Of a DNA stretch of 64,000 bases, positions 59,301 to 64,000 are shown one piece after another. Every line of letters begins with the position of its first letter. Positions within the stretch are counted from its first letter, which is position 1. Source of the stretch: Stylophora pistillata (Eukaryota); NCBI RefSeq assembly GCF_002571385.2, contig NW_019218356.1:47441-111440 (forward strand). Direction: 5' to 3'. Position numbers: made by a program.

Positions 59301-62300
59301 GCTTCACCTGATTAGTATGTTAAAGTAACGACGTTAGTAACGTCAACGGTACGTGATCCATTTATCAAGAAGAAATTATTGATCGAGAGAGCAACGCTAT
59401 GCCGCAACGTTCAATTCAAGTGCTAGAAATTAATGAAAGAGATGTAAGTCTCGGTGGTAATAACATCCCTTCCGTGCAATGTCAAGAGTACGAAAGGTCA
59501 ACGGTGAACCTTCGTAAACAGCTATCTGAGATCCTCCGCCCCACTTTAACAGCCATGAAGCTAACAGGGCACTTTTTCGGTCCAACAGCAGTCAATGACG
59601 ACAATAAGCAGAGAACATGGAATTTTTCGTGTTTCTACAGCGCTCTTGTCACTCTGAGTCAGTATTTGCTTATTGTATTCGCTGTAACAAGTCACTGTCA
59701 TATCGGTTTGAGTGACATGAACAAATTCATCTTCTTACTGCAGACCGTTGTTTGGTATACTCAATGTGCGAGTGGTGCAACTATTTGCTTAGTCATGATG
59801 CCTCTTTCTAAGGACAAGCGATCGAGATTTTCGAAATTTCTCTCCTGTTTTGTAGAGACAGAGCCCGAGCTCAAGGGTATCAAGGCTAAGGCGGTGAAAG
59901 GCCTCATATTTGCTTCTTCTGCAGCAGTTGCCAATACCGTCATTATTGGCCTTTTCAGCATGCGTTCTGGTGGCATAATCTCTCTTTTCCCACCATGGAA
60001 ACTGTTTGCGCACAAATTCGTTCGAGTTGCCGAGGTAGTAATTCCATTTTTCTGTTCATTCGCCATGTTCTTGCCCGTTTTGATGTTTTGCATCACTTGT
60101 ATGCTTCTGGAGAGGATGTTCTCAACCCTAGAAAATAAACTCTCCAATGAATCCATACACAATTTCACCATCTCGTACGTGCGTAAAGAACACGTGAAGC
60201 TTTGTGAGGTTGTGGACTTGGCCAGCACTGTATTTTCGCCGCTCCTCTGTGCCATCATCTCATTGGATGCAACATTAATTTGCATCAACAGCTATCAACT
60301 TGTGCGGGGCGATACCGACCGCATTGCCATCATAGCTTTTGTGTACTGGACTCTCTTCGTAATCGTGTTGTTGCTGATTTTGTTTTCATTTGGGAATCAG
60401 GTCCATGAAAAGGTGAGTTTGTTTCTTGCTTACTGCAATTTTATCTTAGACAAATTTTTCGGAAAGATAGAATTTTTTTTAAAATTTTACTCCTTGAGAA
60501 AGCTAGCTGCTTAAAGTTAATGCAGTGGTCTATTTGGGCAGCGAAAATTGCGGTTGATCTATGAATTGCATTCAAATCAGTGAGACACACCTGTTTTAAT
60601 TAACTTGTTTCAAGACTAATATAAATAATGGTACTATTTGACTTCAAAATAACTCTTCCTTGTCAACTTATAGAATATTTACCAGTACTAGTCGCTGAAT
60701 GAAAAAATCTTGAGAGGATTGCGCTTTGTTTAAAGTAATTAAATGGCGGTGTCGAGAGAGGAAACTCTACGACGTTAGTTTTATTCAATAAGTCATCTTT
60801 CCATTAAAGGAACAAAACCGCAAATGCAGATGTTGTCCAGAGAAAAAAATCCTGTCAATTAAATCCTGTTGCTCTAAGATGTCTAAAAGCTAGAGGTTTT
60901 ACTGCCATCGAGAATTCCTTCCTTCCTCCCTTCAGTATATCATTTTCAGGAATCTGGTTGGTTTTCCTATCAAACTACAATCCTAACTCCGTTGCGCTCT
61001 TTACTTACCAAAAGCATGACGATATCTCCTCCTATCTGTCTCTTGAGACAGATAGGAAGGCAGGAAAGGTCAATGGCAGGTGTTTGACACACACCACATA
61101 TGTGCAAGAATACCAATTTTGGATGCGCAAACTCGCCTGTAAAGGGTACTGGGTTAGGCATCCTGGTGTGGACAAGCTTGTTTTCTCTTGTTTTCTTTCC
61201 CTCCTGGTTTCAAAGGTTCCCAGAAACGTATTACCCTTCTGTACTGCGTTGTCCCTTTTCGCTATTCTAGTGACGAAGGAACCTATCATGAAACAATAAA
61301 CCTTATTTCTAGTTATGATTATTAGTAGAGCGCTCCCATTAGTGAACATATATTTCCTTTAAGAATATTTCGATAACAACTTGCCGAGTATATGACTCAG
61401 TTACTTAAAAAGCCTGTCGTACGGTACTAAAGTGCTATGCTTCTGTGCTTTGATCTTATATGAATTAATGCATAGAAGGGACACGACGTTGCGGCATCGA
61501 TCGTGACCATAAAATTACCACGTCTTGCAACGAGGCATATTTCAATTTCAGAACAACTTTTGATCGTCATTAAAAATTTCTGAATAACACAACGCAGGAA
61601 AGCTTGGTGCACTTCCTCTTTTTACTGCTCGATTGAGATTTTGGGTCATCACTTTATTCTCCTCTTTACAGCACAGCGAGTTGAAGGGATGTATGCTAAC
61701 GATGGAACATAAACTTCTCGGTCATGTTGTCAGTAGTTCTTTATCCTCATATCATCTGGTGTTAATGAAATATTGTCTCCGATTTCTACCTCTTCGTTTA
61801 AATTAAATATTTGCGAAATTAGAGAGTTATTTTAATGATGAAAGAATACAATAATAAAAATGAGAGGATGCATAAAATAATCGCTTTTATGGTGTACGTT
61901 TAGGTGAAGCGGAAATCACTGCACGAAACTTCGAGTTAGCTGAGTGAGCAAAACTATACATTACGAGAAAATGACAAAGCCACAGTGGCATGACAGTGAA
62001 GTCGACGACTGCCCAATTGAGAAGCATTCAAACCGAAGAGTGTTGTTTACATACATAATTAGTTCTTATTTGACATTTTCATTTTTCTAATGACAAGGAG
62101 GTATTGCAATTTGTTGTCAATAGCGCAGAGGAACAAAGAACATCTAATACGACCCAATGAATGGATAACACGAGTTTTTCTCGTTCAATATGAGGTCCTT
62201 ACAGCCACTAATGAACTAGCCAGGTATAATTACCGATCGGCAATTATGATTTAAGATCAAGCTCTCATCTAATAGAAGTTATAAACAACAGCTGCCTGAT

Positions 62301-64000
62301 AAACCTGGTGACCGATCCATAACATTTAGTAAGAATCGGTCCTGATTCGAGAAAACACGATGTTTCACAGATCAGTTGATGCGATGGAAGGACATCGCAA
62401 AGATTCGGGAGACAGTAAATGCAGTCAAATCCCGACCGAAGAATATCATAGGAACGAAGAAATGGTGAAAAATCTACACAAACAGCTGTCAGAGATCTTG
62501 CGTCCAATATTTCTCGTTATGAAACTCACAGGACAATACTTTGGCACAACGGCAGTGTTTGAGGAAAATATGCGAAATACGTGGTGCGTGTCGCGATTTT
62601 ACAGCATTCTTGTCGCTCTGGGCCAGTGGTTGCTCGTTTTAATTGCAGTGACAAGCCATTTCTACTTAGGGTTCCAGGCGATGGATCAGTTTTTCTTTTT
62701 ACTCATTTCCTCGGTTTGGTATATCCAATGTGCGACTGCCACGACTATTTTCTTAGTTGCTTTTCCATTTTCTCAAAGTAGGCAATCGAAATTTTATATG
62801 TACATTTCTGGTCTTGTCGAGGCAACACCAGAGCTTAAGCTAGACGGTATAAAGGTGAAGGCAGTCAAGGGCTTGGCATTAGCGTGCTCTGCAGCAGCAA
62901 TAAATTCTGTCGTCGTTGTTACGATGAGCGTTTATACTGGAGGTGTCGTAGCTGTGTTTCCACCGTGGGAAAAAAACACCTTTATTCGATGGTTCGAACT
63001 CATATTGGGAACTTACTGCTCCTTCTCTTGGTGTGTCCCTGTGCTAGTTTTCTGCGTCATTTGTATGCTTCTGGAACCAATGTTCACAAATTACCAGAAA
63101 CAAGTTTCTGAAAGGTTAATCCACACTTTGAGCATCGCGCACTTAAGAAAAGAGCATTTGAAGTTGTGTCACACAGTAAAATTGGCAAATGCCATTTTCT
63201 CGCCATTTCTTTTTGTCATTGTCACATTGGATGTTCCATTAATTTGCGTCAACTTCCATCAACTCATAAAGTCGTCGGCCCAAACCGACCGCATCATGAT
63301 TGTCGGTTATTTCTATTGGACTTTCTGTATATCTTCTTTATTGATTGTCATGTTCTTGTATGGAAATCGAGTGAACGATAAGGTAAGTTTTTCTTCTCAA
63401 CCAAATCTCACCTAACCAAGAAAAAATAAAAATCTTCAAGGCGCGCAAACCACGAATGAAACTGAGCAATATTACTCTATTACTTATGCAAATCCTGTAC
63501 AAATCGTAATGCTCTCTTTTATCATTTTAATAGTTTATCAAGAGGAAAGCACAAGTAATTAAATGTGGAAATTAATTTCATCTTGATCCATGAAATATTC
63601 ATTTTGATTCGATATATAATTACACCATTGTCAATAACAGTAGTTCAATAGTTTGCTAAAACCGATTATGAAGTTATGAAATACGATTGTTCCTGTTGTG
63701 TTTTGTATTGTTTTCGTTCGTCCTGTTTGAGTTTGTTTCATCTAAGATAAAGATATATTTAGGACATGTATTTGGAACATAACGCTATGCCATCTTTACA
63801 CCTGCAGGCTCACAGTTTCTATGAAACGATTCAAAAGTCACACGTGTCCATCGAAGACCTCAAAGAACACGCCGAGGTACGTAACCCATGTACTCCGCCG
63901 GAATCTCCACAATAACGCTAAGAATTGCGTTACTCAGTTAATTAGAATACATCACGATTTCACGATCGAAACGAATAATTGTTCTAGATGTAGGACTCAG

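What the first reader, a model, noticed from the sequence alone, without database searches (positions are those of the whole stretch)
59399..63876. Possible alternative first exons sharing common 3' exons in a cnidarian Grl locus
Seen: copy F exon 1 is fully open and ends in a strong donor at the conserved position (60412|gtgagt). I find no exon 2 (xHxF), exon 3 (GxSxGG) or exon 4 between 60413 and the next first exon at 62360; the first exon 2 is at 63808. Copies A-E each have their own three 3' exons. Established: insect Gr loci such as Drosophila Gr28b and Gr39a use tandem long first exons spliced to shared C-terminal exons. Inference: the same strategy (variable ligand-binding part, constant pore/anchor part) may operate in a cnidarian.
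Basis: partly seen in the sequence, partly recalled or inferred. Interest (0 to 1): 0.7.

Follow-up and report, generated by a model that had tools for sequence, protein, structure and literature searches.

The report
Two coral taste-receptor-like first exons, one tail
In a coral-type cluster of gustatory-receptor-like genes, one intact first exon has no tail exons of its own and probably borrows those of the next gene, as insect taste-receptor genes do, but no RNA evidence could be obtained.

Summary
The window carries seven gustatory-receptor-like (GRL) first exons (A-G). A-E each have three short phase-0 tail exons within 0.7-2.0 kb.

Copy F (59399-60412) is open for 338 codons and ends in AAG|GTGAGT at the family's conserved intron position. 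Nothing resembling exons 2-4 lies between 60413 and G's start codon at 62360, on either strand. This was tested with profiles of the window's own tail exons and with tails of six other coral GRLs. The first tail exon after F is G's exon 2 (63808-63876).

F does not look dead. Open, gap-free counterparts at 97% and 82% identity exist elsewhere, and similarity collapses just past the donor. Its predicted fold matches insect OR/GR channels through helix S6, so the pore helix must come from tail exons.

The interpretation, Gr28b-style alternative first exons sharing G's tail, is the best reading (about 0.55) but is unproven. No transcript or junction sequence was found. A recently truncated duplicate remains a serious rival. 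G's exons 3-4 lie beyond the window.

The parts
59399..60412 (+). Copy F, long first coding exon (338 codons; N-terminus through helix S6)
   Evidence: Open frame and ATG. Pfam Trehalose_recp 24.6 bits against a cut-off of 21, profile positions 190-335 of 410. AF2 model pLDDT 81 matching insect OR/GR structures.
60413..60418 (+). F donor site, AAG|GTGAGT, phase 0, at the family-conserved intron position
   Evidence: It follows the invariant last Lys column of alignment A2.
60413..62359 (.). Interval without any GRL tail exon. It would be the upstream part of a 3395-nt F intron and would hold G's promoter.
   Evidence: HMM scores are 5.5 bits or lower. tblastn E is 5.3 or higher. It is not repeated elsewhere in the window. 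The 163-codon ORF at 60808-61299 has no Pfam hit and 0 hits among 1.84 billion representatives. No Rfam hit in 57000-64000 falls here.
62360..63382 (+). Copy G, long first coding exon (341 codons), donor AAG|GTAAGT
   Evidence: It is 45.5% identical to F. The in-frame TAA at 62330-62332 means it cannot be an internal coding exon continuing from F.
63383..63807 (+). G intron 1 (425 nt)
63808..63876 (+). Exon 2 (23 codons, phase 0), the first tail exon downstream of both F and G and the candidate shared exon. Exons 3 and 4 lie beyond the window end.
   Evidence: HMM 35.8 bits. 64-68% identical to exon 2 of the Oculina patagonica protein P0007 and of P0009/P0010.
20479..23077 (+). Copy A, complete four-exon GRL (exon 1 to 21537; e2 22103-22165; e3 22554-22643; e4 22970s: 23024-23077). 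Comparison gene.
25664..28745 (-). Copy B, complete four-exon GRL (exon 1 ends 27690; e2 26330-26271; e3 25898-25809; e4 25717-25664)
   Evidence: Pfam 7tm_7 34.7 bits.
30366..32329 (-). Copy C, four-exon GRL whose exon 1 is broken by one extra T in a T9 run near 31350
34588..36332 (-). Copy D, complete four-exon GRL
38673..40358 (-). Copy E, complete four-exon GRL (exon 1 donor GTATAT)

Best explanation
F and G are two alternative, mutually exclusive first coding exons of one transcription unit. Equivalently, they are two overlapping genes. Each exon encodes the N-terminus and helices S1-S6 of a gustatory-receptor-like 7TM channel subunit. Each is presumably driven by its own promoter.

A transcript started at F would splice from 60412 across G's first exon, which has no in-frame acceptor, to the phase-0 acceptor at 63808. 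It would then continue to exons 3 and 4 beyond the window. The result would be two receptors, about 45% identical in the variable body, with an identical TM7/pore-lining tail. This is the architecture of Drosophila Gr28b.

Shown: the anatomy, the absence of F-specific tail exons, the fold, and the conservation of F. Inferred: the splice itself, the separate promoters, and expression.
For: 1. F exon 1 is intact and ends in a perfect donor at the homologous, phase-0 position shared by all 7 copies.

2. No exon 2, 3 or 4 lies in 60413-62359, and there is no orphan tail exon anywhere in the 64 kb.

3. F exon 1 alone stops at the end of S6. The AF2 model (pLDDT 81, pTM 0.80) has its last helix at 308-337. 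Its 19 best listed PDB matches (ranks 1-22) are all insect OR/Orco/GR chains 374-407 residues long, with TMq 0.50-0.66. Pfam alignments of B, D and E end at profile position 296-298 of 370. TM7 therefore lies in the tail exons, so a functional F product needs one.

4. F appears to be maintained. P0001 shows 9 differences in 338 positions and P0002 shows 61 in 338, both with zero gaps. In the read-through past the donor, P0002 keeps only 6 of 23 positions. In a substitutions-only neutral simulation reaching 61 amino-acid differences, the frame stayed open in 5.4% of 1500 runs. F keeps all 17 invariant columns of the 16-sequence alignment.

5. The F/G split is old. (F, P0001, P0002) form a 100/100 clade separate from G and from (P0003, P0004). 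This is therefore not a fresh partial duplication.

6. The same reasoning is the accepted annotation rule for insect GRs, and the architecture is documented for Gr28b (passages read in PMC6720082 and PMC10273160).
Against: No RNA evidence of any kind was obtained.

Protein searches with F found only unspliced read-through ORFs: P0001 to P0006 and P0008. The search for short junction-spanning fragments found one unrelated 55% homologue among 10 candidates. Spliced forms do exist in that database for other coral GRLs (P0007, P0009, P0010).

A search with the tail of the Oculina patagonica protein P0007 ('isoform X2') found no second protein with the same tail and a different first exon. The one annotated coral relative therefore gives no precedent.

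The F-to-63808 intron would be 3395 nt, against 90-1359 nt for the six other first introns.

Conservation of the F lineage does not exclude a recent loss of its tail in this genome. Whether the counterparts of F in other species also lack their own tail exons is unknown.

G's exons 3-4 were not seen.
Confidence: 0.55

Rival explanations
1. F is a truncated duplicate. Its own exons 2-4 were deleted, perhaps recently, and the surviving first exon is a not-yet-decayed pseudogene. It is either silent or gives only non-productive transcripts.
For: The tail exons are absent. No spliced F product was found in the protein databases searched, only read-through ORFs. Pseudogenisation occurs in this cluster, since copy C carries a frameshift. 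At 97% identity, the nearest counterpart is too close to show constraint: in the neutral simulation at 9 differences, the frame stays open in 65% of runs.
Against: The F lineage stayed open and indel-free over 61 amino-acid changes (82% counterpart), while the sequence just after the donor diverged. The donor is a perfect consensus. All 17 family-invariant residues are kept. The interval shows no relic of tail exons, even at noise-level thresholds, which argues against a recent in-place decay. A clean deletion would leave none, however.
Confidence: 0.28
2. F is a stand-alone gene with a different, non-homologous 3' end. Either it reads through or polyadenylates in the intron to give a six-helix protein, or it splices to an unrecognised exon in 60413-62359.
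For: The frame stays open for 33 more codons past the donor. P0001 keeps 21 of 23 of these positions.
Against: The read-through tail is not conserved in the 82% counterpart, at 6 of 23 positions. The longest ORF of the interval has no relative among 1.84 billion representatives and no Pfam hit. According to passages of PMC7746228 and PMC9998090, the 7TMIC family is characterised by a TM7 with a conserved motif. A subunit lacking TM7 would have no known precedent, to my recollection.
Confidence: 0.07
3. Assembly artefact. F's own tail exons exist in the real genome but were lost through a collapse or mis-join between two similar tandem genes.
For: The window has six N runs elsewhere and a possible homopolymer error in copy C. 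Tandem paralogues are prone to collapse.
Against: There is no N in 59399-63876. F and G are only 45.5% identical at protein level, which is too divergent for collapse. The interval is unique sequence with no internal repeats.
Confidence: 0.05

Closest known systems
Drosophila melanogaster Gr28b (Gr28b.a to Gr28b.e)
   Same: It has tandem large first exons that carry most of the coding sequence. Each is spliced to common small exons that encode an identical C-terminus (passages of PMC10273160). Here there are two such first exons, and the break lies at an intron homologous in position and phase to the conserved 3' introns of the family.
   Different: There are two first exons rather than five. 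There would be three shared exons rather than two. The host is a cnidarian. Promoters and junctions are documented for Gr28b and are only inferred here.
Alternatively spliced beetle GRs, e.g. DponGr38a-d
   Same: [quoted passage not shown] The call is made from genome structure: mutually exclusive N-terminal exons placed consecutively before seemingly shared C-terminal exons (passages of PMC6720082). That is the same inference as here.
   Different: This is an arthropod bitter-type GR lineage, often with many more variants.
Drosophila Gr39a and Gr23a; mosquito Gr19a-c
   Same: The same variable-first-exon, constant-tail design. Gr39a and Gr23a are recalled from memory. The Aedes genes are described in PMC10273160.
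   Different: As above.
Cnidarian GRLs such as Nematostella NvecGrl1/2 and coral GRLs
   Same: Same family and same conserved 3' introns. These are cited in passages of PMC7746228 and PMC5850775. The Oculina patagonica proteins P0007 and P0011-P0013 have the same four-part structure.
   Different: I found no report of alternative first exons for them. The primary papers, Robertson 2015 and Saina 2015, are not held and were not read.
Vertebrate clustered protocadherins and UGT1A (recalled)
   Same: Variable first exons, each with its own promoter, spliced to constant exons.
   Different: Unrelated protein families with much larger arrays.

Membership tests
GR/GRL (7TM ion channel superfamily) | Sequence match to Pfam 7tm_7 or Trehalose_recp above the curated cut-off | tested here: met
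   7 first exons scanned. F (24.6 against 21), B (34.7 against 26.6) and E (34.8) are above the cut-off. A (17.8) and D (23.9) are below it. G and C have no GR hit. G is 45.5% identical to F.
GR/GRL (7TM ion channel superfamily) | Fold of insect OR/GR subunits | tested here: met
   The AF2 model of F exon 1 has pLDDT 81 and pTM 0.80. In Foldseek against PDB, the 19 rows listed at ranks 1-22 are all insect OR/Orco/GR chains. Examples are 7lic TMq 0.66, 8jme 0.66 and 6c70 0.62. Rank 23 drops to TMq 0.20. A sequence-profile search of the PDB found nothing relevant.
GR/GRL (7TM ion channel superfamily) | [quoted passage not shown] | tested here: met
   A-E have all three. G shows the first intron and the donor of the second. 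F has only the first donor.
GR/GRL (7TM ion channel superfamily) | TM7 motif TYhhhhhQF | tested here: inconclusive
   The last exons of A-E read S-Y, then five hydrophobic residues, then S/T and L/I. The Tyr is kept and QF is not. F has no last exon of its own, and G's is outside the window.
Alternative-first-exon GR locus (Gr28b type) | Two or more same-strand long first exons, each with its own start codon, the upstream ones lacking their own 3' exons | tested here: met
Alternative-first-exon GR locus (Gr28b type) | Donor of each first exon compatible in phase with the acceptor of the shared exon | tested here: met
   Both exon 1s end on a complete AAG codon and exon 2 starts in phase 0. All copies share this phase, so the test is weak.
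Alternative-first-exon GR locus (Gr28b type) | mRNAs joining each first exon to the same downstream exons | not testable with these tools
   No RNA-seq or eukaryotic contig collection is available. Protein searches gave no spliced F product. The joined F-plus-tail model was deliberately not built or searched.
Alternative-first-exon GR locus (Gr28b type) | A separate promoter before each first exon | tested here: inconclusive
   GTATAATTA occurs only twice in the window, 169 nt before F's ATG and 135 nt before G's. However, 24 of 100 shuffles give two or more matches, and the motif was chosen after looking.

The most novel reading that the evidence does not exclude
Corals use the insect trick of variable first exons spliced to a constant TM7 tail in their GRL genes. 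The F/G arrangement is old: F and G diverged before the split from the species carrying the 82% counterpart. The conserved phase-0 intron in front of the tail would then have served as a hinge for combinatorial receptor diversification in both Cnidaria and Arthropoda. That could reflect inheritance from their common ancestor or repeated convergence.
Probability: 0.4. Interest if true: 0.6.

Novelty: new member of a known kind. Interest (0 to 1): 0.5.

Why it matters
Alternative first exons sharing a constant tail are a hallmark of arthropod gustatory receptor loci. In the searches I could run, I found no report of this design for any cnidarian GRL.

If confirmed, it would show that the ancient 3' intron of this channel family supports modular diversification outside arthropods. 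The module boundaries would be a variable S1-S6 body and a fixed pore helix.

It would also matter for counting and annotating coral chemoreceptor-like genes. Gene predictors would either miss F or call it a pseudogene. The biological role of cnidarian GRLs is largely unknown, so the finding concerns gene architecture rather than function.

Tried and rejected
- **Own tail exons of F.** I searched with HMMs of the window's exons 2-4 on all six frames, with tblastn of G's exon 2, and with six foreign coral tails. Nothing rose above noise.
- **Extra or relic GRL first-exon pieces.** tblastn of F and G exon 1 finds only the seven copies. The best other hit is E 0.43 on the minus strand at 61970-61878.
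- **A gene or transposon in the interval.** The 163-codon ORF has no Pfam hit and 0 hits at E<=0.001 among 1.84 billion representatives. There are no repeats and no Rfam family in the interval.
- **Spliced F protein in public protein sets.** None was found in the 185-592 aa range or the 30-184 aa range.
- **A second Oculina isoform with another first exon and the same tail.** None was found. What distinguishes 'isoform X2' from the other isoforms is therefore unknown.
- **PDB by sequence profile.** No relevant hit.
- **Upstream F/G alignment for a shared promoter.** Only the 9-mer is shared, and this is not significant.
- **Literature.** Robertson 2015 has no PMC id in the reference list I read. 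Saina 2015 and Robertson 2003 are not held. Four full-text searches found no paper on alternatively spliced cnidarian GRLs. Supplements are closed and could hold gene-structure tables.
- **Not done.** The joined F-exon-1-plus-tail model was neither built nor searched. Synteny in other corals therefore stayed unchecked.
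Full report
**What is in the window**

A stop-to-stop ORF list under the standard code gives 17 frames of 150 codons or more. Seven of them are paralogous long first exons of gustatory-receptor-like (GRL) genes:

| Copy | Exon 1 | Strand |
|---|---|---|
| A | to 21537 | + |
| B | to 27690 | - |
| C | to 31314 | - |
| D | to 35319 | - |
| E | to 39345 | - |
| F | 59399-60412 | + |
| G | 62360-63382 | + |

tblastn of F and G exon 1 against the window finds exactly these seven and no further fragment. 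The best other hit is E 0.43.

In Pfam, F (Trehalose_recp, 24.6 bits against 21), B and E (7tm_7, 34.7 and 34.8 against 26.6) pass the curated cut-offs. A and D fall just below. G and C give no GR hit (7 of 7 scanned).

The closest named relative is a scleractinian protein, Oculina patagonica LOC144656577 isoform X2 (P0007, 47% to F). The nearest unnamed ones are 97% and 82% identical. The window is therefore coral-like. I did not try to identify it further.

**Gene structure of the complete copies**

Working by coordinates, I placed three short tail exons behind each of A-E, and exon 2 behind G.
- Exon 2 has 20-23 codons, exon 3 has 30-32, and exon 4 has 17 plus a stop.
- All 16 tail exons are preceded by AG.
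- All 11 internal ones are followed by GT.
- All 5 last exons end in a stop.
- Every junction is phase 0.
- First introns are 565, 1359, 359, 90, 135 and 425 nt (A-E, G).
- The whole tail lies 672-2026 nt from the end of exon 1.

[quoted passage not shown] The last exon carries S-Y, five hydrophobic residues, then S/T-L/I. This is a partial version of the TYhhhhhQF motif quoted in PMC9998090.

**The observation**

F is open for 338 codons from an ATG that follows an in-frame TGA. It ends AAG|GTGAGT. G starts at an ATG that follows an in-frame TAA and ends AAG|GTAAGT.

I built profile HMMs of exons 2, 3 and 4 and ran them with all filters off against 4387 six-frame peptides of the window.
- They recover the 6, 5 and 5 exons they were built from, at 35.8-43.0, 64.6-73.5 and 35.1-43.8 bits.
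- The next-best scores anywhere are 11.0, 6.4 and 6.5 bits.
- Inside 60413-62359 the best is 5.5 bits, E 3.3.

These models match their own training exons by construction, so I repeated the test with foreign queries. These were the last 72 residues of six GRLs from other corals (P0007, P0009-P0013).
- They hit every tail exon of A-E and G's exon 2.
- Only two other HSPs reach E<0.1, both at E 0.034, and both lie elsewhere in the window.
- The interval yields 6 HSPs, all on the minus strand, E 5.3-25.

There is also no orphan tail exon anywhere else in the 64 kb.

**The interval itself**

It is unique sequence and has no N. No Rfam family in the 57000-64000 scan falls within it. Its longest ORF (60808-61299) has no Pfam match and no relative at E<=0.001 among 1.84 billion representatives. 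I see no gene, transposon or exon relic in it.

**Does F need a tail?**

An AlphaFold2 model of F exon 1 alone was built with a 16-row alignment. Copy C was left out because of its frameshift. P0008, P0010, P0011 and P0014 were left out as partial. The model has pLDDT 81 and pTM 0.80, with long helices ending at 308-337.

In Foldseek against the PDB, the 19 rows shown at ranks 1-22 are all insect OR, Orco or GR chains. These include MhOR5 7lic (TMq 0.66), Gr64a 8jme (0.66), Orco 6c70 (0.62), BmGr9 and Gr43a. The next row drops to TMq 0.20. The targets are 374-407 residues long. The Pfam alignments of B, D and E stop at profile position 296-298 of 370.

Exon 1 therefore encodes the body through S6. 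The tail exons encode S7, whose motif lines the pore in Orco according to the figure legend quoted from PMC7746228. A functional F subunit needs a tail from somewhere.

**Is F alive?**

| Comparison with F | Differences over 338 aligned positions | Gaps | Read-through past the donor |
|---|---|---|---|
| P0001 | 9 | none | 21 of 23 positions kept |
| P0002 | 61 | none | 6 of 23 positions kept, identity lost after the seventh residue |

P0001-P0006 and P0008 are plain ORF calls that run through the donor into the intron. They show that the frame is open elsewhere, but they say nothing about splicing.

In a substitutions-only neutral simulation of F's DNA, the frame stayed open in 5.4% of 1500 runs at 61 amino-acid differences, and in 65% of runs at 9 differences. 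The absence of any indel over 1014 nt adds to this, but I cannot put a number on it without an indel rate.

F keeps all 17 invariant columns of the alignment.

In the tree of exon-1 parts (16 rows, the same rows left out), (F, P0001, P0002) is a 100/100 clade. It sits in an unresolved trio with G and (P0003, P0004). A groups with two Oculina genes, and B, D and E form a separate clade.

The F lineage is therefore old and has been under constraint for most of its history. This does not exclude a recent loss of its tail in this genome.

**Interpretation**

F and G are alternative first exons. F-initiated transcripts skip G's first exon, which has a stop just upstream of its ATG and no in-frame acceptor. 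They then use the acceptor at 63808.

This matches the Gr28b description: unique first exons with distinct promoters, spliced to common exons, giving an identical carboxy-terminal domain (passages of PMC10273160). It also matches the rule used to annotate beetle GR splice variants from genome structure (passages of PMC6720082).

I did not build or search the joined F-plus-tail model.

**What speaks against it**

- There is no RNA evidence.
- Searches with F found no spliced product in the 185-592 aa range (8 hits among 2361 candidates).
- No short junction-spanning fragment was found (1 unrelated hit among 10 candidates). Spliced products of other coral GRLs are in the same database (P0007, P0009, P0010).
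- The Oculina tail search returned only P0007 itself at 100% identity (6 hits among 97 candidates). The annotated relative therefore offers no precedent.
- The proposed intron (3395 nt) is 2.5 times the longest first intron in the cluster.
- G's exons 3-4 are outside the window.

I put the shared-tail model at about 0.55, a truncated duplicate at about 0.28, a different 3' end at about 0.07 and an assembly artefact at about 0.05.

**Novelty**

In four full-text searches and in passages of four GRL papers (PMC7746228, PMC9998090, PMC5850775, PMC11730519), I found no mention of alternatively spliced cnidarian GRLs. The two primary surveys, Robertson 2015 and Saina 2015, are not held, and supplements are closed, so I cannot say it is unreported.

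If true, this is a new member of a known kind: the arthropod design in a cnidarian. That is of moderate interest for receptor evolution and of practical interest for annotation.

Noticed in passing
window 31340-31360 (minus strand), copy C exon 1: One extra T in a run of nine T breaks the frame 13 codons before the donor. Read in the shifted frame, the exon ends with the family-typical last residues. This is either a homopolymer assembly error or a young pseudogene.
   Followed up: partly
window 59229-59237 and 62224-62232 (+): GTATAATTA occurs only twice in the 64 kb, 169 nt upstream of F's ATG and 135 nt upstream of G's. It is a possible TATA-like element for each first exon. However, 24 of 100 shuffles give two or more matches, and the motif was picked after looking.
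   Followed up: partly
window 58084-58156 (-) and 58266-58338 (+): Two tRNA-Thr(AGT) genes with identical Rfam scores face away from each other. They lie about 1.1 kb upstream of F, next to the N run at 57578-57618.
   Followed up: partly
window 40667-42147: A tandem array of six 245-nt units at 99% identity. It abuts the 340-nt N run at 42165-42504, just upstream of copy E.
   Followed up: no
window 10590-11651 (-) and 56278-57342 (+): Two intronless rhodopsin-family GPCR frames (Pfam 7tm_1, 154 and 148.5 bits) flank the GRL cluster, the second only 2 kb upstream of F. A cytochrome P450 frame lies at 45308-46726 (-).
   Followed up: no
window 39339-39344 and 27684-27689 (minus strand): The exon-1 donors of E (GTATAT) and B (GTATAA) depart from the consensus, unlike those of F and G. 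B's first intron starts with a (GAT)n run.
   Followed up: no
P0003 and P0004: Two G/F-like first-exon ORFs, 57% and 53% identical to F and about 60% to G, are both reported from a contig of 462,017 nt. This may be a tandem pair in another species. The DNA could not be fetched.
   Followed up: no
window 17546-18310 (-), 6155-6649 (-), 8687-9691 (+): Long open frames with no Pfam match at E<=0.001. One contains an N. They may be transposon remnants.
   Followed up: no
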